From Vicinamibacterales bacterium (GTDB lineage: Bacteria > Acidobacteriota > Vicinamibacteria > Vicinamibacterales > UBA2999): 64,000 nt of DNA. Both the position numbers and the translations under genes were made by a program. The DNA lies in the NCBI GenBank assembly GCA_050187355.1, contig JBFWXO010000006.1, positions 43,658-107,657 on the forward strand. The letters are read 5' to 3'. Shown piece by piece: positions 48,473 through 63,930 of the stretch. The notes beneath the pieces were generated by a model that was not told where the DNA came from, did no database searches, and worked only from the letters and a program-made list of their open reading frames with translations. Position 1 is the first letter of the stretch. Each line of letters begins with the position of its first letter.

Positions 48473-50685
48473 GCAGGCGGAAGAGGCGCGAGCCCGCGCC
48501 GCCGGCGGCGCCACCGCCGTCGGCCTCCACCGGGCCGCAGACGCCGGACCGGCCCGCGCGGCGATCCGCGACGACGATCGTGGTCCTGGCCGCGGCCGCG
48601 GCGGCGCTCGCGGGCGGGGTGGCCTGGTATCGGGCCGGCGGATCCCGGGCGGCGATCGTCGAACGCGTGTCCGATCAGAACGTGCTGCTCGTTACGATCG
48701 ACACCCTGCGCGCCGACGCGATCGGCGCCGGGACCGGGCCCGGGCGGGCGCCGACGCCCACCATCGACGGCCTGGCCCGGCGGGGCGCGCGCTTCGACTT
48801 CGCGCACGCGCAGGCGGTCGTGACCCTGCCGTCCCACACGAGCATCCTCACGGGCCGCTTCCCGTTCGACCACGGCGTCCGCGACAACAACGGCTTTCGG
48901 CTCGGCGCCTCGATGCCCACGCTGGCGACCCGGCTGAAGGCCCAGGGCTTCGCCACGGCGGCGTTCGTCGGGGCCTACGTGCTCGACTCGCGGTTCGGGC
49001 TCGACGCGGGATTCGACCGCTACGACGACCGCCTGCAGACCTCCGACGCGCCCACCGACATCTCCATCCCCGAACGCCGCGCCGAGGCGGTCGTGGCCCT
49101 CGCCCGCGAGTGGCTGGCCGCGCACCGCGGCGGCCGGTGGTTCCTCTGGGTCCACGTCTTCGACCCGCACGCGCCCTACGATCCGCCCGCGCCGTTCAAC
49201 GAGACCTATCGGGACCGGCCCTACGCGGGGGAGGTGGCCTATACGGACGGCGCGCTGGCGCCCCTGCTGGCCGACGTGGACGCCATCGCCGACCGCCCGA
49301 CCCTGGTCGTGCTCACGGGCGACCACGGCGAGGCGCTCGGCGATCACGGCGAGATGACGCACGGGCTCTTCGCCTACGAGCCGACGCTGCACGTGCCGCT
49401 GGTCATGGCGCAGGTCGGATCCGGACGCCGCGCCGAGCCCGCGGCGGTCTCCGCGGCGCCCGTGCGCCACGTGGACATCGTGCCGACGGTGCTCGACGCG
49501 CTGGGGATGCCGGCGGCCGAGGGCCTGCCGGGATGGTCGCTGCTGCAGACGCTGGACGGCCATCCCGCCGCGGACACCACGTCGTACTTCGAGGCGCTGA
49601 CGACGTCGCTCAACCGCGGCTGGGCGCCGCTCAGGGGCGTGGTCGTGGGGCGCGACAAGTTCATCGATCTGCCGGTGCCGGAGGTGTACGACCTGGCACG
49701 CGACGCGGCCGAAGCGCACAACCTGTTCGATGCGGACCCGGTGCGGCGCCGTCCGCTGCAGGCGACGCTCTCGTCGCTCAACGCGGCCCTGCCCGGCGAG
49801 CGGCAGGCCGAATCGCCCGAGGTCCTGCGGCGGCTGCGCGCGCTCGGCTACGTGGCCGGCAACGACACCGCGCCCCGCCGCACCGAGTACGGCGTGGAGG
49901 ACGATCCGAAGCGGCTCGTCGAGATCGAGCTGCAGATCCACCGCGGCGTGGAGCTCATCGAGCGGGGCCGGCTGGACGAGGCAAGTCGCGTCTACGGCGA
50001 GATCATCGCGGCGCGGCCCGATATCGCCGTCGCCTACCGCCATCTGGGCTACATCCACTGGCGGAGCGGCGACGCCGCCGGCGCCATCGCCGTGCTCAAG
50101 GGCGCGATCGCGCGCGGCCTGACGTCGCCCGACCTGCGGGCGCAGCTCGGCACCTACCTGTCCGAGACCGGCGCGGCGCCCGAGGCGGTCGCCCTGCTCG
50201 AGGACCAGCGGACCGCCGACCCGCCCGATGAAGAGGCGCTGCGCGCGCTGGGCATGGCGTACGCCCGCTCCGGCAGGCCCGGCGACGCGCTGCAGGTCTT
50301 CGACCGCGTGCTCGCCGCCGCGCCCGACGACGCCATGGCGCTGCAGAACGCCGGGGCGGCGCTGCTCACGGCCGGCGACGCGGCGCGGGCGCGCGAGCGC
50401 TTCCAGAAGGCCATCGCCGTGGACGCGGCCCTCGCCCCCGCCTACACGGGGCTCGGCGTGGCCGAGGCCAGCCGCGGCGACATTCCCGCCGCCATCGCCG
50501 CCTGGCGGCGTGCCGTCGAGCTGGACCCGCGCGAGTTCGACGCCATGCACAATCTGGCGCTGGCGCTGCTGCGGACCGATCCCACCGAGGCGCGGCCCGT
50601 CATCGAGCGCTTCGTCCGCGAGGCCCCCCGCGCGCTCTACGGGCCGGACATCGCCGAGCTCGAGCGGCTGCTGTCGCGGCGGTGA
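48469..50685 (+). CDS. Second membrane-anchored sulfatase-fold protein with TPRs
   Basis: VTIDTLRADAI, TLPSHTSILTG, HVFDPHAPY, GDHGEALGDHGEMTHG; TPR-like repeats; ATG overlaps the upstream TGA. Confidence 0.88.
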   Translation: MSRRKRREPAPPAAPPPSASTGPQTPDRPARRSATTIVVLAAAAAALAGGVAWYRAGGSRAAIVERVSDQNVLLVTIDTLRADAIGAGTGPGRAPTPTIDGLARRGARFDFAHAQAVVTLPSHTSILTGRFPFDHGVRDNNGFRLGASMPTLATRLKAQGFATAAFVGAYVLDSRFGLDAGFDRYDDRLQTSDAPTDISIPERRAEAVVALAREWLAAHRGGRWFLWVHVFDPHAPYDPPAPFNETYRDRPYAGEVAYTDGALAPLLADVDAIADRPTLVVLTGDHGEALGDHGEMTHGLFAYEPTLHVPLVMAQVGSGRRAEPAAVSAAPVRHVDIVPTVLDALGMPAAEGLPGWSLLQTLDGHPAADTTSYFEALTTSLNRGWAPLRGVVVGRDKFIDLPVPEVYDLARDAAEAHNLFDADPVRRRPLQATLSSLNAALPGERQAESPEVLRRLRALGYVAGNDTAPRRTEYGVEDDPKRLVEIELQIHRGVELIERGRLDEASRVYGEIIAARPDIAVAYRHLGYIHWRSGDAAGAIAVLKGAIARGLTSPDLRAQLGTYLSETGAAPEAVALLEDQRTADPPDEEALRALGMAYARSGRPGDALQVFDRVLAAAPDDAMALQNAGAALLTAGDAARARERFQKAIAVDAALAPAYTGLGVAEASRGDIPAAIAAWRRAVELDPREFDAMHNLALALLRTDPTEARPVIERFVREAPRALYGPDIAELERLLSRR

Positions 50686-50774
50686 CTCCGCCGCCGGGCG
50701 CGAGTACACTCGGGGGCGCATCGCGCCCATTCGTCACCCCCGGCCCGGCCGGGGGAACTGCGAGCCCGATTCCG

Positions 50775-53360
50775 ATGACGAGATGGATTCCCGCGTTCGC
50801 GTGCGCGGCCCTGCTGGCCGCGTCGCCCTTCGCACGCGCCGGCCAGACGCCCGAGGGCCAGACGCCCGTGTTCCGTACCGGCGTCGAGATCGTCCGCCTC
50901 GACGCGCGCGTCCTCGACGGCGCCGGCCGGCCCGTGAAGGACGTCCGCCAGGACGAAGTGACGGTGCTGGAGAACGGGCAGCCGCGTCCAGTCGTGTTCT
51001 TCCAGCACGTGGACGAGCCCGACGCGCCGTACGTCGAAGTGGCCAGCCGCACGATCGGGTCCGAGGTCTCCACCAACCGCGGCGCCCCCCGCGGGCATCT
51101 CTACGTCCTCGTGTTCGACCAGCAGCACATCACGGCCGGCAACGAACAGCGGGCCCGGCTGGCCGCCGAGCGCTTCCTCCGCTCCCGGATCCGCCCGGGC
51201 GACCGCGTCGCGCTGGCGGCCTTCCCGGGGCCCGGACCGCGGCTGACGTTCTCGGCGGACGTCGAGCGGGCCATCGCGGAGCTGCCGAAGATTCGGGGCA
51301 ACCTCGAGCGGACCGGCATCGGGGCGCTCGGCACCATGACCACCTACGAGGCGCGGCAGATCGTCCGCGGCAACGACCTCGTGCTGTCGCAGGTCGCCAC
51401 GCGCCTGGCCGCGGAGAGCGGCACGACCGACACGACGCGGACGGGTGGCGCCGCCGGGCGCGCGGGCGGCGGCGACTCGTACTCGACGCAGCTGGTGCGC
51501 GAGGACGCCTCGACGCTCGCCCGCCGCGAGGACGAGGGCGCGCGGCAGTTCCTGCTGGGGCTGACGGCCCTGCTGCGCGATCTGGAGGGCATCGAGGGAC
51601 GCAAGGCCATCGTGCTCGTCTCCGAGGGCTTCTTCGTGGACAACGTCTCGCGTGACGTCGAGCGCGCGGCGGCCGCCGCGGCGCGGGCGCACGGCGTCGT
51701 CTACGCCCTGGACCTCAACCGGCGCAGCGACACGCTGCGCGACAGCGGCCCGACGGGCGGCGACGCGCAGGCCGAGGTGTCCAGCCGGCTGGAGTCCATC
51801 GGCGGCCTGGCGGCCGAGACCGACGGCGCGCTCTTCGTGGACGCCACCTCGCACATGGACGACGTCTTCGACCGCGTGGCGGCGGAATCGCAGGACTACT
51901 ACCTCGTCGGGTTCGAGCCGAGCGCGGCGGCCCTCGCGGACCGCTCGGCCTACCGCCGCGTCTCGGTCGCGGTCCGGCGGCGAGGCGTGACCGTCAAGAC
52001 GCGGTCCGGATACGCGCTCGACGCCGGCAGCCCGTCGCCCGCCGACCGCCGGCGGAGCATCGACGTGGCGCTCCGGGCGCCGTTTCCCCAGCAGGGCCTC
52101 CCGGTCGACTTCACGACCTATACGCTGGGCGGCGGCAGCAACGACAGCCAGCGGGTCGTGCTGAGCCTCGAGGCGGACCTCCCCATCGCCAGCCCGGAGG
52201 TGCGGTCGGCCGACGTCGTCTTCGTCGTGAAGGACGCGGTCGACGGGCGCGTCGCCGCCAGCGGCACCGACGTCATGTCGCTGCCCGAGGCTCCCGCCTC
52301 GGACCGGGCCACCGGACGCGGCGCCTACAAGGTGCAGTTCGAGCTGGGCGCCGGACAGTATCTGATGCGCGTCGTCGTACGCGAGCCGGGTGGCCTCATG
52401 GGGAGCGCCGATCGACGGTTCGAGGTGCGCGCTCTGGGCGCGAGCGACGTCACGGCGAGCGACCTCGTCTTCGGCTCCCGGCACGGCCTCGCCGTGCGGC
52501 CCACCGGGCACGCCGGGGAGGTCCTGCCGGGCGTCGTCGAGGTCTACGGCCCGACCGACCGGGCCCTCGCGGACCTCCGCGTCCACCTGGCGGTGGCGCC
52601 CGTGGGCCAGTCGCCCACCCTGGAGATGGACGGCGACCCGCTGCCGGCCACGTTGACCGACGGGGGGTTCGTGCGGCCCGTCCAGGTGGACCTGCCCCTC
52701 GAAGGCCTCGCGCCGGGCCAGTACGTCGCGCGCGGTGTCGTGACGGCCGGCGGCCGGATCGTGGCCGAGCTCTCACGCGAGATCGAGGTCCTCGCCGGAC
52801 CGGCAGGAGCGCCGGCGGCCCGGCCGATGGGTTCCGGCGCGACGGATCCTCGAGGGGTGGACCCCAGATCCGTGCTCGACGGCGCCGTGGGAAGGGCCAC
52901 GCTGGCCCGCGCGCGTGAGGCCGCGGCCGGCCAGCCGGCAGACCAGTTCGGCCTGGCCGCCGCAAGCCGGTGGGAGCGCCTGGACGGCGGCATCGAAGGG
53001 CCGGCCGGGACCGCACGGCCCGGCCAGCGCCTCCTGGCGGGCATGGCGCGGTTCGCGAGACGCGACTTCCCGGGTGCGCTCGAGGCCTGGGAACCGGCGC
53101 TCTCGGACGCGGACGCCGGTGTGGCGTTCCTGGCGGGCTGGGCACACGCCATGTCGGGCGACGATCGCGGCGCGGTCGGCGCCTGGCGGCACGCGGTGCG
53201 GCTCGATCCGACGCTGGTGTCGGCCTACCTGGCCATCGCGGATGCCTGCGTGCGGCTGGACAGCCCGGGACTGGCGGTCCAGGCCCTCCGGGCCGGCCTG
53301 GCGGCCCTGCCGGATTCGCCGGAGCTGGCGGAACGGCTCGCGCGGCTGGAACGTCCGTAG
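50775..53360 (+). CDS. Acidobacterial-type VWA-domain protein with C-terminal TPR
   Basis: Signal peptide; PVFRTGVEIVRLDARVLD, VLVFDQQHI, RKAIVLVSEGF, YYLVGFEP, VKTRSGY. Confidence 0.8.
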   Translation: MTRWIPAFACAALLAASPFARAGQTPEGQTPVFRTGVEIVRLDARVLDGAGRPVKDVRQDEVTVLENGQPRPVVFFQHVDEPDAPYVEVASRTIGSEVSTNRGAPRGHLYVLVFDQQHITAGNEQRARLAAERFLRSRIRPGDRVALAAFPGPGPRLTFSADVERAIAELPKIRGNLERTGIGALGTMTTYEARQIVRGNDLVLSQVATRLAAESGTTDTTRTGGAAGRAGGGDSYSTQLVREDASTLARREDEGARQFLLGLTALLRDLEGIEGRKAIVLVSEGFFVDNVSRDVERAAAAAARAHGVVYALDLNRRSDTLRDSGPTGGDAQAEVSSRLESIGGLAAETDGALFVDATSHMDDVFDRVAAESQDYYLVGFEPSAAALADRSAYRRVSVAVRRRGVTVKTRSGYALDAGSPSPADRRRSIDVALRAPFPQQGLPVDFTTYTLGGGSNDSQRVVLSLEADLPIASPEVRSADVVFVVKDAVDGRVAASGTDVMSLPEAPASDRATGRGAYKVQFELGAGQYLMRVVVREPGGLMGSADRRFEVRALGASDVTASDLVFGSRHGLAVRPTGHAGEVLPGVVEVYGPTDRALADLRVHLAVAPVGQSPTLEMDGDPLPATLTDGGFVRPVQVDLPLEGLAPGQYVARGVVTAGGRIVAELSREIEVLAGPAGAPAARPMGSGATDPRGVDPRSVLDGAVGRATLARAREAAAGQPADQFGLAAASRWERLDGGIEGPAGTARPGQRLLAGMARFARRDFPGALEAWEPALSDADAGVAFLAGWAHAMSGDDRGAVGAWRHAVRLDPTLVSAYLAIADACVRLDSPGLAVQALRAGLAALPDSPELAERLARLERP

Positions 53361-57211: not shown

Positions 57212-59368
57212 ATGCGGCCCGATCTTCCGTGCAGCGGGGCTCGTCCAACCGCCGTCCGGCGGAGGGGAGAATTTGTCCCGACAATTCTCCTTTTATTCGC
57301 TTTTCCCCTCGCAGCTCAGCCGCAGACCCCGCCGCCGCCAGCCCCGCCGGACCAGCCGACTCTCCGCATCGAGACGTCCCTGGTGGAGGTGCCGGTATGG
57401 GTCCAGGACGGGTCGGGCGCCTTCGAGCCCGGTCTGACCGCCGACGACTTCGAGGTCTACGACGACGGCGTCCGGCGCCCGATCCGGGACGTCCTCCTGC
57501 TGGGTGCGTCCGAACGCCGCGGCACCGCCGGCCTCGACGCACGGGGTGCGCAGGCCCCCGCCGCGCCCGGAGCCCTGCTCCTGGCCTTCGACGACGCCCA
57601 CATGGATCCCGGGGCATTCAGGCGGCTGACGTCGGCGGCCGCGGCGTTCCTGCCGACGCTGCCGGCCACCCAGCTCGCGGGCGTCTTCATCGGCGGACGG
57701 CTCGCCGGCGGGCGGCTCATGACCGAGCGGGCCCCGCTCCTGCAGGCCCTCGCCGCGGCCCAGGCGCCTCCGACGCGGCTGCGGTGGCGCCGCGACGCCG
57801 GGGACTGGCCCCGCCTGTCCGACGAAGCCGAAGCCGTCCTGATTGCCGGAGACGACGGCGCGCTGCTGGATCAGGCCGTGCGGCGCGCCTGCGCCGACGA
57901 GCCCGATGCCTGCAAGAAGGACGGCGGCTCAAGCGCCCGGATCGAGCTGATGGCCAAGGCCCGGCGGTTGTCGGCCGACCTCCGGCAGACGGCGACGCAG
58001 AGCCTGGCGGCCTGGCGCGCCCTGGCGCGGGGCCTGCGGGCCGCGCCCGGCCGGAAGGCGGTCGTCGTGCTCAGCGGCGGCTTCGAGGTGCAGGAACAGC
58101 TCGGTGCCCTGCGCGGCCTCATCGAGGATGCCGCGCGGGCGGACGTGATCTTCTACTTCGTGGACGCGGCCGGTACGGCCAGGGCGGCCCGCGGCGGGGA
58201 CGTCCTCGACCGGGGCGGCTGGACGGCCGGCGACTCGCCGCTGGCGTCGGCCATGGCTCGGACGAGCGAGGACGCGATGAACGCCGTCGCCAACGACACG
58301 GGCGGCTACGTGGTCCGGGGACGGAACGATGCCGGACCCGCGCTGGCCGGGATCGCGGACGATCAGCGCCGCCACTACGTGCTGGCGTTCGAGCCCGAGG
58401 GCCCGATGACGGGCGACTGGCGGCGGCTGCGCGTCGTCGTCCGGCGCCGCGGCCTGCACGTCCGCGCGCGGCAGGGCTACTGGGCGACACCGTCGCCGTC
58501 GCGGGCGATGCCCACGGCGCCGGATCCCGCGGCGGCCGCACCCGTCTCCGAGGCTCCCGCTCCCGCCGCGGCCCCCACGCGCGTCGCCGATGCGGTCGTC
58601 CCCACTTCCGGCCGGCCGGACGCTGCGGCAGCCCCCTCCCGGCCGGCCGAACCCGCGGCGGTCCTGAACCGCGATGCCCTCCATGCGCGCCCGGTCGCGG
58701 CGGATCACGTCGCCGCGCTGGCCTCGTCGGGCGGCGGGACGGGGTCGTCGGAGGCCGAGACGGCCGCCCGCGAGGGCTGGCAGGCCTACGAACGCGGCGA
58801 CCTCGAACGCGCCCGGACGCGGCTCGGCGATGCGGTCCGCCTCGACACGCCCCGCCCGTGGGTGTACTACGCGCTGGGATTCGCCGAGATGGCCACGGCC
58901 AGCCCGAAGGCCGCCGCGACGGCATGGGAGGAGGTGCGCGCGGCCGCTCCCGAGTTCCAGCCCGTCTACTTCGACCTGGCGGACGCCTACCTGCGCCTCG
59001 GCCGCTCGAGCGACGCGCTCGACGTGCTCGAGGCCGCGGAGCGGCGCTGGCCGGGCGACACCGAGGTGCTGAACGCCCTGGGCGCCATCCACGTCGGGCG
59101 CGGATCGATCGACGCGGGGCTGTCGTGCTTCCAGCGCGCGCTGGCGGCGAACGAGGCCGATGCGATGATCCACTTCAACCTGGGCAAGTCCTACGAGCTG
59201 CGCTACATCCGGTCGGCCCGCTTCGTCCGGTCGACCCGTCAGTGGCACCGCGACGAGGGCGCCCGCCAGGACGCCATCCGCCACTACCAGCGGCACATCG
59301 AGCTGGGAGGGGCCATGGCGGACCAGGCGCGCGAGGGGCTGCGGCGGCTCGCCTGGGCGCCCCGCTGA
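57212..59368 (+). CDS. Acidobacterial-type VWA-domain protein with Pro/Ala linker and TPRs (start uncertain)
   Basis: LRIETSLVEVPVWVQD, LLAFDDAHM, RKAVVVLSGGF, DTGG, HYVLAFEP, RARQGYW; TPR-like C-terminus. Confidence 0.8.
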   Translation: MRPDLPCSGARPTAVRRRGEFVPTILLLFAFPLAAQPQTPPPPAPPDQPTLRIETSLVEVPVWVQDGSGAFEPGLTADDFEVYDDGVRRPIRDVLLLGASERRGTAGLDARGAQAPAAPGALLLAFDDAHMDPGAFRRLTSAAAAFLPTLPATQLAGVFIGGRLAGGRLMTERAPLLQALAAAQAPPTRLRWRRDAGDWPRLSDEAEAVLIAGDDGALLDQAVRRACADEPDACKKDGGSSARIELMAKARRLSADLRQTATQSLAAWRALARGLRAAPGRKAVVVLSGGFEVQEQLGALRGLIEDAARADVIFYFVDAAGTARAARGGDVLDRGGWTAGDSPLASAMARTSEDAMNAVANDTGGYVVRGRNDAGPALAGIADDQRRHYVLAFEPEGPMTGDWRRLRVVVRRRGLHVRARQGYWATPSPSRAMPTAPDPAAAAPVSEAPAPAAAPTRVADAVVPTSGRPDAAAAPSRPAEPAAVLNRDALHARPVAADHVAALASSGGGTGSSEAETAAREGWQAYERGDLERARTRLGDAVRLDTPRPWVYYALGFAEMATASPKAAATAWEEVRAAAPEFQPVYFDLADAYLRLGRSSDALDVLEAAERRWPGDTEVLNALGAIHVGRGSIDAGLSCFQRALAANEADAMIHFNLGKSYELRYIRSARFVRSTRQWHRDEGARQDAIRHYQRHIELGGAMADQAREGLRRLAWAPR

Positions 59369-59369
59369 T

Positions 59370-59388
59370 CCGCCGGCGGTGCCGGCGG
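59370..59388 (+). terminator. GC hairpin just after the VWA-TPR stop
   Basis: ccgccggc-ggt-gccggcgg; no U-tract. Confidence 0.35.
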
Positions 59389-59404
59389 CGGCGCGCGCGG
59401 CGGT

Positions 59405-59433
59405 TTGCGATGCGCGCCATTTTCGGCTACGCT
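59405..59433 (+). promoter_or_regulatory. Putative sigma70 promoter of the his operon
   Basis: TTGCGA, 17-nt spacer, TACGCT; ends 10 nt before the leader ATG. Confidence 0.6.
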
Positions 59434-59443
59434 CTCCGGCGTC

Positions 59444-59518
59444 ATGTCCGCCGTGGTCCACGTGCATCGCGTCCACCATCACCTGCCCCATCGCGGGCCG
59501 GCTGGACTGCACGTGTAG
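59444..59518 (+). CDS. hisL: His operon leader peptide (24 aa, 7 His)
   Basis: MSAVVHVHRVHHHLPHRGPAGLHV*; below the ORF-track length cutoff; lies directly upstream of a terminator and hisI. Confidence 0.85.
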   Translation: MSAVVHVHRVHHHLPHRGPAGLHV

Positions 59519-59556
59519 CGCACACGACGTCAGCGTTCACCTCTGAACCTGAGCAG

Positions 59557-59583
59557 CCCCGCCGGCATCCGGCGGGGTTTTTT
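59557..59583 (+). terminator. Attenuator terminator
   Basis: ccccgccgg-cat-ccggcgggg followed by TTTTTT. Confidence 0.88.
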
Positions 59584-59610
59584 CGTGGTGGCGCACCCCG
59601 TCTGGCGTTC

Positions 59611-59664
59611 CAGCCGCCCGTCGCGGCGTTTCCCAGCCGCCCGTCGCGGCGTTTCCCAGCCGCC
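59611..59664. repeat. 23-bp tandem repeat, about 2.3 copies
   Basis: cagccgcccgtcgcggcgtttcc twice exactly, plus cagccgcc. Confidence 0.85.
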
Positions 59665-59694
59665 TGTGACAACGGAACAGCGAAGGATCGACCC

Positions 59695-60033
59695 ATGACC
59701 CTGGATTTCACGAAACTGGACGGCCTGGTGCCCGCGGTGGTGCAGGACCACGAGAGCGGCGAGGTGCTGATGGTGGGCTTCATGAACGAGGAGGCCTGGA
59801 GCATCACGCGGCGCATCGGCTACGTGACCTTCTACAGCCGGACGCGCAACACGCTGTGGACCAAGGGCGAGACGTCGGGCAACCGCCTGGCCGTCAAGCG
59901 GATCCTCGTGGACTGCGACGACGACACGGTGCTCGTGCAGGCCGCCCGCGAGGGCGACGGCAACGTGTGCCACACCGGCACGCGCACCTGCTTCAACACC
60001 GAGGTGACCGACTGGACGGAGGCCGCGCGATGA
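59695..60033 (+). CDS. hisI: Phosphoribosyl-AMP cyclohydrolase (monofunctional)
   Basis: [32 protein letters not shown]. Confidence 0.95.
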
Positions 60034-60923
60034 AGACGACGCTGAAGCTGGGCATCCCCAAGGGATCGCTCGAGGAGTCCACCGTGGCGCTCTTCCGCCG
60101 GGCGGGCTACGAGATCCGGACGAGCTCGCGGTCCTACTTCCCCAGCATCGACGATCCCGAGATCGAGTGCATGCTGATCCGCGCGCAGGAGATGGCGCGC
60201 TACGTCAGCGACGGCGTCCTCGATGCCGGCCTCACCGGCATGGACTGGATCGAGGAGCACGCCATCGGCCATCCCGAACAGGTCCCCCTGGTCCCGGTGT
60301 GCGACCTCGTCTACTCGAAGCAGAGCTTCGGCAAGGTCCGGTGGGTGCTCGCGGTGCCGGAGGCCTCGCCCGTCCAGAAGGCCGAGGACCTGCGGGGCAA
60401 GCGCGTGGCCACCGAGCTCGTCCGCGTGACGTCCGCCTGGTTCGCCGCCAAGGCGACGCCCGTGGAGGTGGAGTTCTCCTGGGGCGCCACGGAAGTGAAG
60501 CCGCCGGAGCTCGCCGACGCCATCGTCGAGGCCACCGAGACCGGATCGACGCTGCGCGCCAACCGCCTGCGCATCGTCGACACGCTGATGGAGAGCAACA
60601 CGCGCCTGGTGGCCAACGCCGCCACCATGGCCGACGCCTGGAAGCGCGAGAAGGTCGAGACGCTGGCCCTCCTGCTGAAGGCCGCGATCGAGGCGCAGGG
60701 CCGCGTGGGGCTGATGCTCAACGTGCAGCGGTCGGACCTGGACCGGGTGCTCGCCGAGCTCCCGGCGCTGCAGCGCCCGACTGTCTCGGCGCTCTCGGAT
60801 CCCGACTGGGTGGCCGTGAACACGATCCTGGAGGAGCGCACCGTCCGCTCGATCATCCCGAGGCTCAAGGCCGCCGGCGGCCAGGGGATCGTGGAGTATC
60901 CGCTGAACAAGATAGTGATCTAG
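60030..60923 (+). CDS. hisG: ATP phosphoribosyltransferase (long form)
   Basis: [48 protein letters not shown]. Confidence 0.96.
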
Positions 60924-61008
60924 CAGGGACCGGGGACCAGGGAGCGGGGAACGAGAATTCCGCGTCAGCGGGCATCGTGTTGCCCTGGTCCCTGGTCCCC
61001 GGTCCCTG
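60924..61008. repeat. REP-like inverted heptamer repeat between hisG and hisD
   Basis: cagggaccggggaccaggg (60924-60942) is the exact reverse complement of ccctggtccccggtccctg (60990-61008). Confidence 0.85.
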
Positions 61009-61022
61009 CCTGCGAGGTTTTC

Positions 61023-62285
61023 GTGATCAGAATCGTGGAGTCCAGCAACCGGGCCGAGGTCGAGGCCCTGCTCAAGCCGACCGCCATTCGCGATCGGGCC
61101 ACCGAGCGGAAGGCCGCGGTCATCGTCGAGCGCGTGCGGCGCGAGGGCGATGGGGCGCTGAAGGCCTACGCGAAGGCGCTCGACGGCTGGGGCGGCGCGA
61201 TCGAGGTGCCGCGGCGCGCGATCGAGGCCGGGGCGCGGCGGGCGCCGGCCGGCGTGCGGGCGGCGCTGAGGCGGGCGGCCGCCGCGATTCACGCCGTGGC
61301 CGAGGCGCAGCGGCCCCGGCCGTGGCGGAAGCGCGTCGCCCCCGGCGTCACCGTCGAGCAGCGGGTCATTCCGCTCGACCGGGTCGGCTGCTACGTGCCG
61401 GGCGGCCGGTATCCCCTGCCGTCGTCGCTCCTGATGACGGCGATCCCGGCGCGCGTGGCCGGCGTGCCCGACGTGATCGTCTGCTCGCCGTCGATGGATC
61501 CCGTGGTGCTGGCCGCCGCCGTCGAGGCCGGCGCCGACCGCGTGTTCCGGCTCGGCGGGGCGCATGCGGTGGCGGCGATGGCGTACGGCACCGCGACGGT
61601 GCCGCGCGTCGCCAAGATCGTCGGGCCGGGGAACCGGTGGGTCTCGGCCGCCAAGGCGCTCGTCGCGGCCGACTGCCCCATCGACTTCTACGCCGGACCG
61701 ACCGAGATCCTGATCGTGGCCGATCGCGGCCCGGCCGGCTGGATTGCCGCGGACCTCATCGCGCAGGCCGAGCACGATCCCGACGCGCGCGCCGTCTTCG
61801 TCACCTCGCGCCGGTCCCTCGCCCGCGCGGTGGCCGAGGAGGTGGCGCGGCAGCTGCCGGCCACGGGCCCGGCCGCCGCGTCGCTCTGGCACCACGGAGG
61901 CATCATCGTCACGCGCACCATGACGGACGCCGTGGCCCTGGCCAACGAGGCCGCGCCCGAGCACCTGGTCGTGGACACGGACGAGCGCGCCGATCGCATC
62001 CGGAACGCCGGGGCCATCTTCGTCGGTCCCTGGACCGCGCAGGCGGCCGGCGACTACGCCATCGGCTCGAACCACACGCTGCCCACGGCGGGCGTGGCGT
62101 CGGTGCGCGGCGGGCTGCACGCCGCCGACTTCGTGAAGCTCGTGTCGGTGCAGCGGCTCACGAGGGCCGGCGCGGCCGCCATCGGGCCAACGGCCGTCAC
62201 GCTGGCACGCGCGGAGGGCTTGGAAGGCCACGCCCGATCGGTGGAGGCACGGCTGCACCCGGGGACGGGAGCCCCGACACGATGA
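61023..62285 (+). CDS. hisD: Histidinol dehydrogenase
   Basis: [44 protein letters not shown]. Confidence 0.96.
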
Positions 62286-63358
62286 GCACGATCCAGGGAT
62301 TGCGTACTCCGGGCCCGGGCCTGCGCCTGCACCTGAACGAGAACACCGCCGGGTGTTCGCCGCGCGTGCTGGAGGCGATTCACCGCGTGACGGCCGACGA
62401 AGTCTCCACCTATCCGGACTACGAGGCCGCGGTCCGCGAGACCGCCGCGCATCTCGGCGCCGATCCGGACTGGACGGTGCTGACCAACGGGCTCGACGAC
62501 GGCCTGCTCCTCACGGCGATCGGCTACCTCACGGCGCGTGCGCCCGACGGCCTCGTCGCGCTGGGCGCCACGCCCGTGGTCCCGAGCGGCCAGCCGGAGC
62601 AGATTCTCGTGCTGCCCACGTTCGAGCCGTACCTGGTGAACGCCAGGGCCCTCGGCGCGAGGACCGTCGCGATTCCGTCCGACGCGGACTTCGCGTTCCC
62701 GCTGGCGCAGGTGCTGGGGGCGATCTCGCCGAACACGCGCCTCATCCTCGTCAACACGCCGCACAACCCCAGCGGGCGGCCCGTGGCCGAGTCCGACATC
62801 CGCGCGGTCATCGAGGCGGCGCCGCACGCCGCCGTCTTCATCGACGAGGCGTATCACGACTTCCACGGCGTCAACCACCTGGGGCTGGCCCGGGACTATC
62901 CGAACGTGATCATCGGCCGCACGTTCTCCAAGGCCTACGGCCTGGCCGGCATCCGGATCGGCGTGGTCATCGCGCCCCCGCCCCTCCTGGCGCCCATCCG
63001 GTACGTCATGCCGCTCTTCAACCTGAACGCCGTCGCCGTGGCGGCGCTCCGGGCGGCCGTGGCCGACCCGCGGTTCCTGGCGGCGTCGGTCGCCCAGGCG
63101 CGCGAGTCGAAGACGCTGCTGTACGAGGCCCTGACGCGCCTCAGCCTTCCCCACTGGAAGAGCGAGACGAACTTCGTCCTCGTGAACGGCGGCGATCGCT
63201 GCCAGGAGTTCGTGTCGGGCCTCGCCGCCCGCGGCGTGCACGTCCGCGACCGGAGCCGGGAGCATGGCTGCGCGGGCTGCTTCCGCGTGTCGGTCGGCCC
63301 GGTGGAGCACACGCGGGCGGCCATCGCCGCGCTGGAGGCGCTGTGCGCACGGCCGTAA
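62282..63358 (+). CDS. hisC: Histidinol-phosphate aminotransferase
   Basis: [34 protein letters not shown]. Confidence 0.94.
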
Positions 63359-63930
63359 TCGATCGGAAGACGGGCGAGACGCGCGTCAGGATCGCGCTCA
63401 CCCTCGAGGGGCGGGGGCGCTTCGACAACGCGACCGGCATCCGCTTCCTGGACCACATGCTGGACCTGGTGGCGCGGCATGGCGCGTTCGACCTGTCGGT
63501 GCGCGCCGCCGGCGACCTCGACGTGGACCAGCACCACACCGTCGAGGACGTCGGCATCGCGCTGGGCCAGGCCGTGGACAAGGCGCTGGGCGACCGCCGG
63601 GGCATCAACCGCGCCGGCTATTTCGTGATGCCGATGGACGAGACGCTGGCCGTGGTCGCCATCGACCTGGGCGGGCGCCCGCACACGGTGGTGGACACGA
63701 AGGTGCGGGTGCGCCTGGTGGGCGACCTGCAGACCGAGCTCGTGACCGACTTCTTCGAGGGCTTCGCCACGGCCGCGCGCGCCAACGTCCACGTGAAGGT
63801 GATGCACGGCCGATCCAACCACCACAAGATCGAGGCCTGCTTCAAGGCCTTCGCCCGCGCGCTGCGGGTCGCGTGCGCGAAGGACGCGCGCATGGCGAAG
63901 CAGTTGCCGAGCACGAAGGGGCTGCTGTGA
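63343..63930 (+). CDS. hisB: Imidazoleglycerol-phosphate dehydratase
   Basis: [33 protein letters not shown]. Confidence 0.96.

What the first reader, a model, noticed from the sequence alone, without database searches (positions are those of the whole stretch)
59405..59583. Complete ribosome-mediated histidine attenuator in a probable acidobacterium
Seen: a sigma70-like promoter; an almost leaderless 24-aa peptide with 7 His codons (HVHRVHHHLPH core); a 9-bp terminator plus U6; and an alternative pairing of gcggg-ccg-gctg (59493-59504) with cagc-cccgc (59554-59562) that would disrupt the terminator's 5' arm. Established: this is the hisL mechanism of enterobacteria, predicted in a few other phyla; I am not aware of it being described for this lineage. 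The peptide is invisible to the ORF track.
Basis: partly seen in the sequence, partly recalled or inferred. Interest (0 to 1): 0.7.

Follow-up and report, generated by a model that had tools for sequence, protein, structure and literature searches.

The report
Histidine leader-peptide attenuator in Acidobacteriota
A 24-codon, histidine-rich mini-gene followed by a switchable transcription stop signal sits in front of the histidine-synthesis operon of this Vicinamibacterales (Acidobacteriota) genome and of most of its relatives; it is most likely the textbook E. coli-type attenuation switch, in a phylum where I found no published description.

Summary
Window 59444-59518 (+) encodes MSAVVHVHRVHHHLPHRGPAGLHV (7 His). 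An 11-bp terminator hairpin plus T6 follows at 59555-59583, 111 nt before hisI of a hisIGDCBH operon.

His-rich short ORFs lie upstream of hisI in 90 of 110 related loci, against 0-3 of 110 in controls. They span Vicinamibacterales, Terriglobales and Bryobacterales. In 87 distinct sequences a run of at least four T follows, usually 55-76 nt after the stop codon.

The terminator, a hairpin joining the His codons to the ORF's 3' end, and an antiterminator all show compensatory changes.

Constrained folds give the antiterminator when a ribosome sits on His codons 6-13. They leave the terminator free when the ribosome is at the stop codon.

A conserved -35/-10 pair ends 10-11 nt before the start codon and there is no conserved Shine-Dalgarno. 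The leader ORF is therefore probably translated from a leaderless or nearly leaderless mRNA, but no transcription start was mapped.

There is no Rfam match, including His_leader RF00514. I found no paper describing it for Acidobacteriota. This scan has already reported the same device in more than 20 other genomes.

Verdict: real, a new member of a known kind, of moderate interest.

The parts
59405..59410 (+). -35-like hexamer TTGCGA (TTGCCA in most relatives)
   Evidence: Read directly. Conserved in the genus alignment A1. Terriglobales have TTGACN at the same distance. Below the scan tool's threshold.
59428..59433 (+). -10-like hexamer TACGCT (TAnnCT), 17 nt after the -35 and 10 nt before the ATG
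   Evidence: T, A, C and T are invariant in 17 genus members. The same 9-10 nt spacing to the start codon is seen in Terriglobales. The transcription start was not mapped.
59444..59518 (+). Leader ORF, 24 codons plus UAG, MSAVVHVHRVHHHLPHRGPAGLHV; no conserved Shine-Dalgarno
   Evidence: The start-codon column is ATG here and GTG in the 16 other genus members. Homologous His-rich ORFs occur in 90 of 110 loci.
59459..59491 (+). Regulatory His codons H6, H8, H11-H13 and H16 (the seventh, H23 at 59510-59512, is Cys in relatives)
   Evidence: codon positions; His conserved, flanking residues not.
59453..59521 (+). Hairpin 1:2 (anti-antiterminator). Its core is 59459-59466 (CACGUGCA, His codons) paired with 59508-59515 (UGCACGUG).
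   Evidence: Part of the MFE of the free leader. The core pairs covary in 47 sequences, for example one pair is CG 22 / UA 11 / UG 7.
59497..59510 (+). Antiterminator 5' strand (segment 2), GCCGGCUGGACUGC; ends 6 nt before the stop codon
   Evidence: Pairs with 59553-59566 with two internal mismatches. 76.9% of cells are paired; covariation is 0.148 against 0.123 in shuffles (1 of 500) and at most 0.056 when slid. Within the genus the base pair is CG 11 / UA 4 / UG 2. It is the MFE when a ribosome is on the His codons.
59512..59526 (+). Small inner hairpin CGUGU/ACACG, which spans the stop codon; forms inside the antiterminator junction
   Evidence: MFE of the stalled state. CGUGU and ACACG are present in all genus members by eye. 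The column counts are blurred by alignment gaps.
59530..59552 (+). Hairpin B, present in both conformations and lying next to the antiterminator 3' strand
   Evidence: One G-C to C-G compensatory change within the genus (L008). Not conserved outside the genus.
59553..59566 (+). Antiterminator 3' strand (segment 3), which is the 5' arm of the terminator plus 2 nt upstream and the first loop base
59555..59583 (+). Intrinsic terminator: 11-bp stem (59555-59565 with 59569-59579), loop CAU, T6 at 59578-59583
   Evidence: 96.3% of cells are paired and 5 pairs have compensatory changes in 47 sequences. It is the RNAalifold consensus.
59610..59664 (+). Perfect 23-nt tandem repeat, 2.4 copies, in the spacer between terminator and hisI; role unknown, specific to this genome
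   Evidence: not repeated in the closest relative L002.
59695..60033 (+). hisI (phosphoribosyl-AMP cyclohydrolase), first structural gene; GAAGGA Shine-Dalgarno at 59683-59688
   Evidence: NF000768 scores 133.9 bits against a cut-off of 126.
60030..63930 (+). hisG (60030-60923), hisD (61023-62285), hisC (62282-63358) and hisB (63343-63930). hisH starts at 63927 and runs off the window.
   Evidence: hisG, hisD and hisB score above the curated cut-offs. For hisC the best match is the family model, but below its cut-off.

Best explanation
This is a ribosome-mediated (leader-peptide) transcription attenuator that senses charged tRNA-His and controls read-through into hisIGDCBH.

Transcription probably starts 2-4 nt upstream of the leader ATG. 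This is inferred from the -10 spacing.

When His-tRNA is plentiful, the ribosome runs to the UAG at 59516-59518. There it covers segment 2 (59497-59510). Segment 3 (59553-59566) is then free to pair with segment 4, and the terminator (59555-59579 plus U6) stops RNA polymerase before hisI.

When His-tRNA is scarce, the ribosome stalls on His codons 6-13 (59459-59482). It occupies segment 1 (59459-59466), so hairpin 1:2 cannot form. Segment 2 pairs with segment 3 in a three-way junction of about -30 kcal/mol. The terminator cannot fold and the operon is transcribed.

Without any translation, hairpin 1:2 forms and the terminator forms with it (super-attenuation).

Shown here: the sequence elements, their geometry, their conservation and covariation, and the energetics. 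Inferred: the transcription start, ribosome stalling, and histidine-dependent read-through in vivo.
For: 1. The ORF has 7 His in 24 codons. The terminator follows it. The operon downstream is hisI, hisG, hisD, hisC, hisB.

2. Conservation: 90 of 110 hisI-upstream loci carry a His-rich short ORF, against 0-3 of 110 in controls. In the 87 distinct sequences with a T-run, the distance from stop codon to the end of the T-run is mostly 55-76 nt. In several relatives only 8-10 nt separate the T-run from the hisI start (L024, L033, L037). That leaves no room for a separate promoter, so hisI must be transcribed through the terminator.

3. Selection acts on the RNA, not the peptide. Only the His residues are conserved. 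The conserved motif CCGGCnGGACUGyGCG is read in two different frames in different lineages (PAGL... versus RQDCAR).

4. Pair counts: terminator 96% paired with 5 compensatory pairs; hairpin 1:2 core covaries; the antiterminator exceeds both shuffles and slid controls. Within the genus one antiterminator pair shows C-G to U-A. Three of the five sequences with U in the terminator 5' arm have A at the antiterminator partner column.

5. Folding: the nascent RNA up to 59568, with a ribosome at any of H6-H13, gives the antiterminator plus inner hairpin plus hairpin B (-35 kcal/mol). With a ribosome at H23 or at the stop codon, only hairpin B forms. Antiterminator junction -30.3 against terminator plus B -31.1 kcal/mol, so the choice is kinetic. 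The free full-length leader folds into 1:2 plus B plus terminator, z = -3.3.
Against: There are no experimental data for this organism, which is a metagenome-assembled genome from landfill.

The transcription start is not mapped. Metatranscriptome contigs of relatives also cover DNA upstream of the predicted start. They do not end cleanly at the T-run.

All helices are G+C-rich, so complementarity alone is weak evidence. Per-sequence duplex z-scores against shuffled segments averaged only -1.2.

With the full transcript at equilibrium and a ribosome at H11-H13, the very stable terminator still wins. The switch therefore has to be kinetic.

A stall at H16 (A site 59489) would partly cover segment 2.

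The His codons are interspersed (HVHRVHHHLPH) rather than a pure run.
Confidence: 0.85

Rival explanations
1. The short ORF encodes a functional His-rich (for example metal-binding) micropeptide with its own terminator. The his operon is transcribed independently from a promoter between the terminator and hisI.
For: His-rich peptides can bind metals. In this window the spacer between terminator and hisI is 111 nt long and contains a repeat, so a promoter could be hidden there.
Against: Only the His residues are conserved. The C-terminal nucleotide motif is read in two frames. The spacer is only 8-10 nt in several relatives, which excludes a separate promoter there. The linkage to hisI holds throughout the phylum. 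No promoter-like site was found in the spacer.
Confidence: 0.03
2. The terminator and antiterminator are real, but the switch is set by a trans-acting factor or by uncharged tRNA or a ligand binding the RNA (T-box-, riboswitch- or protein-mediated antitermination). The His codons would be incidental.
For: T-box and HisR control of his genes exist in other phyla (PMC9413887). The leader folds stably (z = -3.3).
Against: No Rfam family matches, T-box included, even at E up to 10. The one feature conserved across very divergent leaders is the His-codon cluster placed upstream of segment 2. The leader is too short (about 140 nt) and too variable for a T-box.
Confidence: 0.05
3. A leader ORF with stalling exists, but it acts mainly through Rho-dependent polarity, mRNA stability or translational coupling rather than through the intrinsic terminator.
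For: Intrinsic terminators are rare in this 72% GC genome (69 strong sites), so Rho may dominate termination generally.
Against: This is one of the few canonical hairpin-plus-U6 terminators in the genome. It is 96% conserved with compensatory changes and overlaps the antiterminator exactly.
Confidence: 0.05

Closest known systems
Enterobacterial his operon leader (hisL attenuator; Rfam His_leader RF00514)
   Same: A short ORF with clustered His codons, mutually exclusive 1:2, 2:3 and 3:4 hairpins, an intrinsic terminator, a his biosynthetic operon downstream, and a stop codon placed so that a terminating ribosome masks segment 2.
   Different: There is no sequence or covariance-model similarity (no RF00514 hit at E up to 10). 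The first gene is hisI, not hisG. The His codons are interspersed (7 of 24) rather than 7 in a row. There is no Shine-Dalgarno, and a promoter lies directly in front of the start codon, so the mRNA is probably leaderless. The antiterminator is a three-way junction enclosing two small hairpins. The sequence is very G+C-rich.
His-leader attenuators predicted in Firmicutes (B. cereus group hisZ/hisS, Peptostreptococcaceae, Erysipelotrichales; PMC2965389, PMC9413887)
   Same: These are independently recognised His-codon leader ORFs with terminator and antiterminator outside Proteobacteria, found by comparative genomics and likewise not matched by RF00514.
   Different: A different phylum, different regulated genes and unrelated sequences. 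Neither paper reports an acidobacterial his leader. PMC2965389 states that almost no predicted attenuator in Acidobacteria had an assigned function.
Leaderless polycysteine short ORFs of mycobacteria (cysteine-responsive attenuators; bioRxiv 10.1101/834739)
   Same: A sensor uORF that starts at or next to the 5' end of the transcript, without a Shine-Dalgarno. Its clustered codons for one amino acid tune expression of the downstream operon.
   Different: The amino acid sensed is Cys rather than His, and the phylum is Actinobacteria. I did not read that preprint's mechanism in detail. Leaderless status here is only inferred from promoter spacing.

Membership tests
Ribosome-mediated (leader-peptide) amino-acid transcription attenuators | Short translatable ORF with clustered codons for the end-product amino acid, upstream of the biosynthetic operon | tested here: met
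   7 His in 24 codons upstream of hisIGDCBH. Present in 90 of 110 related loci against 0-3 in controls.
Ribosome-mediated (leader-peptide) amino-acid transcription attenuators | Intrinsic terminator between the leader ORF and the first structural gene | tested here: met
   11-bp stem plus T6. 96% paired with 5 compensatory pairs. It is the RNAalifold consensus.
Ribosome-mediated (leader-peptide) amino-acid transcription attenuators | Antiterminator helix that shares a strand with the terminator | tested here: met
   59497-59510 with 59553-59566. Exceeds shuffled and slid controls. Compensatory pair within the genus. It is the MFE of the stalled-ribosome state.
Ribosome-mediated (leader-peptide) amino-acid transcription attenuators | Anti-antiterminator (1:2) that includes the regulatory codons, with the stop codon close enough to segment 2 for a terminating ribosome to mask it | tested here: met
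   Core 59459-59466 with 59508-59515 covaries. The stop codon lies 6 nt after segment 2. Masking by a ribosome at the stop removes the antiterminator.
Ribosome-mediated (leader-peptide) amino-acid transcription attenuators | Read-through increases when the cognate charged tRNA is limiting and depends on leader translation | not testable with these tools
   No culture and no raw stranded reads. Metatranscriptome contigs only show that the leader of relatives is transcribed.
Rfam His_leader (RF00514) | Covariance-model match at or above the gathering score | tested here: not met
   cmscan of 58800-60300 at E up to 10 gave only two chance sRNA matches driven by the terminator, and no His_leader hit.
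T-box leader (His-specific) | Match to the T-box covariance model (specifier loop and T-box sequence) | tested here: not met
   No T-box hit.
Leaderless mRNA | Transcription start at, or within a few nt of, the start codon, and no Shine-Dalgarno | tested here: inconclusive
   The conserved -10 box ends 10-11 nt before the start codon here and 9-10 nt before it in Terriglobales. The bases between are not conserved and contain no Shine-Dalgarno. RNA contigs do not define a 5' end.

The most novel reading that the evidence does not exclude
The His attenuator is an ancestral, phylum-wide device of Acidobacteriota that evolved independently of proteobacterial hisL. Its sensor ORF is translated from a leaderless mRNA, or one with at most about 4 nt of 5' UTR. 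Ribosome loading would then be tied directly to promoter escape rather than to a Shine-Dalgarno. It would be the first leaderless amino-acid attenuator outside Actinobacteria.
Probability: 0.45. Interest if true: 0.55.

Novelty: new member of a known kind. Interest (0 to 1): 0.4.

Why it matters
Regulation in Acidobacteriota, a dominant but poorly cultured soil phylum, is almost uncharted. A 2010 survey noted that nearly none of their predicted attenuators had a function (PMC2965389).

This element gives a concrete, testable regulatory RNA for the his operon across the phylum, and it would fill a gap in Rfam and in genome annotation.

It also shows that intrinsic termination and transcription-translation coupling are used in a 72% GC lineage with few canonical terminators.

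If the leaderless start is confirmed, it offers a natural system for studying how leaderless 70S initiation is synchronised with RNA polymerase.

The mechanism itself is textbook, so the conceptual surprise is modest.

Tried and rejected
1. Rfam scan at a permissive threshold found only chance, terminator-driven matches to two sRNA families.

2. I replaced it with 59497-59510: 59553-59566.

3. Per-sequence duplex energies of segment 2 against the terminator arm, compared with mononucleotide shuffles, gave a mean z of only -1.2. In G+C-rich RNA this test has little power, and my automatic segment boundaries cut the window's own segment 2. I relied on column covariation instead.

4. Equilibrium folds of the full transcript with a masked ribosome mostly keep the terminator. 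Only the nascent-transcript folds are informative.

5. RNA evidence from wastewater metatranscriptomes: contigs of a close relative cover the leader at depth 2.5-3.3. One contig includes the promoter region, so they give neither a transcription start nor a termination point.

6. RNA evidence from peat and permafrost metatranscriptomes, laid on the Terriglobales locus L090. The leader is transcribed on the + strand, judged from my reading of adapter orientation. In 5 of the 8 runs laid, coverage stops 7-25 nt past the T-run. Two other runs carry contigs that run on into hisI (to 1528 and 1584), and the eighth, of unrecorded type, covers the whole stretch. Contigs also extend upstream of the predicted start, where a co-directional gene ends at 1242. 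This is suggestive only.

7. A crude screen of the whole genome for other amino-acid leader ORFs upstream of strong terminators found none. A scan for other His-run ORF ends found nothing comparable.

8. The 2010 Lopatovskaya et al. survey of attenuators (Mol Biol 44:128) is not held. I could not check whether it lists Acidobacteria.

9. I did not build a covariance model, because the pair counts already answered the question.

Full report
**1. What is in the sequence**

Window 59444-59518 (+) is an ORF of 24 codons, MSAVVHVHRVHHHLPHRGPAGLHV*, with seven His codons.

Thirty-six nucleotides after its UAG lies a canonical intrinsic terminator. The stem is 59555-59579 (11 pairs, 9 of them G-C), the loop is CAU, and T6 runs from 59578 to 59583. 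It was the only terminator-like site in the 2 kb scanned. By my own crude screen it is one of only 69 strong hairpin-plus-T5 sites in the whole 6.3-Mb, 72% GC genome.

The genes downstream are:
- hisI, 59695-60033, NF000768 above its cut-off
- hisG, 60030-60923
- hisD, 61023-62285
- hisC, 62282-63358
- hisB, 63343-63930
- the start of hisH at 63927

The upstream gene (57212-59368) is an acidobacterial VWFA/TPR protein (TIGR03436).

No Rfam family matches the region, even at E up to 10. This includes His_leader RF00514 and T-box.

**2. Taxonomy and conservation**

The closest named HisI loci are Vicinamibacterales, followed by other Acidobacteriota. The assembly comes from a landfill metagenome.

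I collected 110 hisI loci: 30 from the nearest genomes and 80 named records.
- 90 of them have a short ORF with at least 4 His in 10 residues within 400 nt upstream of hisI. The figure is 0 of 110 on the reverse complement and 0-3 of 110 in Markov-resampled sequences.
- The architecture is uniform. The ORF has about 20-31 codons. The distance from the stop codon to the end of the T-run is mostly 55-76 nt. The distance from the T-run to hisI is 8-130 nt in almost all.
- Carriers are labelled Vicinamibacterales, Terriglobales, Acidobacteriaceae, Bryobacterales, Solibacteraceae, Ca. Angelobacter and Ca. Acidoferrum.
- The Bacteroidota, Chloroflexota, Spirochaetota and gammaproteobacterial hits in the same list lack it.
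- Of the acidobacterial loci scored as lacking it, several carry degenerate or frameshifted versions (L029, L047, L052, L068). In L102 the translated upstream sequence looks like the end of another his gene.

In relatives where only 8-10 nt separate the T-run from the hisI start (L024, L033, L037), hisI can only be transcribed by reading through the terminator. This makes the terminator a regulatory attenuator rather than the end of an independent gene.

**3. Selection acts on the RNA, not the peptide**

Only the His cluster is conserved at the amino-acid level.

The conserved 3' part of the ORF, CCGGCnGGACUGyGCG, is read as PAGL(H/C/R)... in 24 sequences and, shifted by one base, as RQDCAR in 5 others. 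That excludes a conserved peptide and points to a conserved RNA strand.

**4. Secondary structure**

*Terminator.* On the 47-sequence Vicinamibacterales alignment A2, the terminator is 96.3% paired. Compensatory changes occur at 5 of its 11 pairs. It is the RNAalifold consensus.

*Hairpin 1:2.* A hairpin joins the His-codon region to the ORF's 3' end, with core 59459-59466 CACGUGCA paired with 59508-59515 UGCACGUG. It is part of the MFE of the free leader (z = -3.3) and it covaries, for example one pair is CG 22 / UA 11 / UG 7.

Across relatives it is no better than column shuffles: 332 of 500 shuffles reach its pairing, and covariation is 0.080 against 0.074.

The register 59497-59510 (GCCGGCUGGACUGC) with 59553-59566 (GCAGCCCCGCCGGC), which has two conserved internal mismatches, does better:
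- 76.9% of cells are paired.
- Covariation is 0.148 against 0.123 in shuffles (1 of 500) and at most 0.056 when slid.
- Within the genus its basal pair switches C-G to U-A in four genomes and to U-G in two.
- Where the terminator 5' arm has U instead of C, the antiterminator partner is A in three of five sequences.

In Terriglobales the sequences are different, but the same logic appears. GUGUCGGCGG near the ORF's 3' end is complementary to the terminator arm CCGCUGACGC.

**5. Energetics and geometry**

I folded the nascent RNA up to 59568, before the terminator's 3' arm exists, with everything up to 13 nt past the A site masked.
- A ribosome at any of H6-H13 gives the antiterminator enclosing a small hairpin (59512-59516 with 59522-59526) and hairpin B (59530-59552), at -35 kcal/mol.
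- A ribosome at H23 or at the stop codon leaves only hairpin B, so the terminator can form.

The antiterminator junction (-30.3 kcal/mol) and terminator plus B (-31.1 kcal/mol) are nearly isoenergetic. At equilibrium on the full transcript the terminator often wins. The decision must therefore be kinetic, as in classical attenuation.

Segment 2 ends 6 nt before the stop codon, well within a terminating ribosome's footprint.

**6. Promoter and leaderless start (inference)**

The hexamers are TTGCGA (59405-59410), 17 nt, TACGCT (59428-59433). This is 8 of 12 matches and below the scan tool's threshold. Both hexamers are conserved in the genus (TTGCCA; TAnnCT invariant). The start-codon column (ATG here, GTG in the others) always lies 10-11 nt after the -10 box. 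The bases in between are variable and contain no Shine-Dalgarno.

Terriglobales show near-consensus TTGAC(A/G/T), a spacer of about 17 nt, TA(C/G)nnT, then 9-10 nt before the ATG.

With a start about 7 nt after the -10 box, the 5' UTR would be 2-4 nt.

RNA data do not settle this.
- Wastewater metatranscriptome contigs of a close relative cover the leader, but one includes the promoter.
- I laid eight peat or permafrost runs on the Terriglobales locus L090. Six are labelled RNA and two are of unrecorded type. The leader is covered on the + strand, judged from my reading of adapter orientation.
- In five of these runs coverage stops 7-25 nt past the T-run. Two others carry contigs that run on into hisI (to 1528 and 1584). 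The eighth, of unrecorded type, covers the whole stretch.
- Contigs also run upstream of the predicted start, where a co-directional gene ends at 1242.

**7. Comparison with what is known**

Functionally this matches the enterobacterial hisL attenuator. It is not a member of RF00514, and it differs in several ways:
- the first gene is hisI, not hisG
- the His codons are interspersed
- there is no Shine-Dalgarno
- the antiterminator is a junction rather than a simple hairpin

His leader peptides outside Proteobacteria have been predicted for some Firmicutes (PMC2965389, PMC9413887). For Actinobacteria there is a conference paper cited in PMC4833913.

Leaderless sensor uORFs are documented for cysteine in mycobacteria (bioRxiv 10.1101/834739).

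My full-text searches found no description of a His attenuator in Acidobacteria. PMC2965389 says almost no acidobacterial attenuator had a function assigned. The 2010 survey by Lopatovskaya et al. could not be read.

**8. Earlier notes of this scan**

At least eight follow-up reports on other genomes reached the same reading. These are not independent evidence.

One suggested there is no 1:2 hairpin. In the Vicinamibacterales examined here, a 1:2 hairpin is present and covaries.

One reports the device in an Armatimonadota genome. I did not test that.

**9. Verdict**

It is a new member of a known kind of regulator.

Confidence that it is a functional His-sensing ribosome-mediated attenuator is about 0.85. 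Interest is moderate: the mechanism is textbook, the phylum is undescribed, the leaderless start would be an interesting twist, and this scan has already found the element repeatedly.

Noticed in passing
window 59610-59664: Perfect 23-nt tandem repeat (CCAGCCGCCCGTCGCGGCGTTTC, 2.4 copies) in the spacer between the attenuator terminator and hisI. Each unit could form a GCCGC/GCGGC mini-hairpin. The closest relative (L002) does not carry the repeat. Role unknown.
   Followed up: partly
whole genome G000 (window = C6:43658-107657): Only 69 strong hairpin-plus-T5 intrinsic terminators in 6.3 Mb (72% GC) by a crude screen. No other amino-acid leader ORF was found upstream of them.
   Followed up: partly
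L018, L020, L023, L025, L026 compared with L001-L017 (leader ORF 3' ends): The conserved RNA motif CCGGCnGGACUGyGCG is translated in two different reading frames in different Vicinamibacterales lineages (PAGL... versus RQDCAR). This is a clean example of RNA-level constraint inside an ORF.
   Followed up: yes
L052 (upstream of hisI) and L042 (upstream of hisI): The L052 leader appears to have one extra C, which removes the stop codon so the frame runs on to hisI. This is either a sequencing error or decay. L042 has roughly 90-nt tandem repeats in place of a leader.
   Followed up: no
L090:1213-1584 (Terriglobales MAG from palsa): Peat and permafrost metatranscriptome contigs cover the homologous leader. 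The highest depth (32-48) lies within the leader, and depth is zero just past the terminator in five runs. Three contigs start at exactly 1320, which is probably an assembly break rather than an RNA end.
   Followed up: partly
window 57212-59368: The upstream gene encodes a 718-aa protein with an acidobacterial VWFA domain (TIGR03436) and C-terminal TPR repeats. A second protein of similar kind, with a C-terminal TPR-like region by eye, lies at 50682-53360.
   Followed up: no
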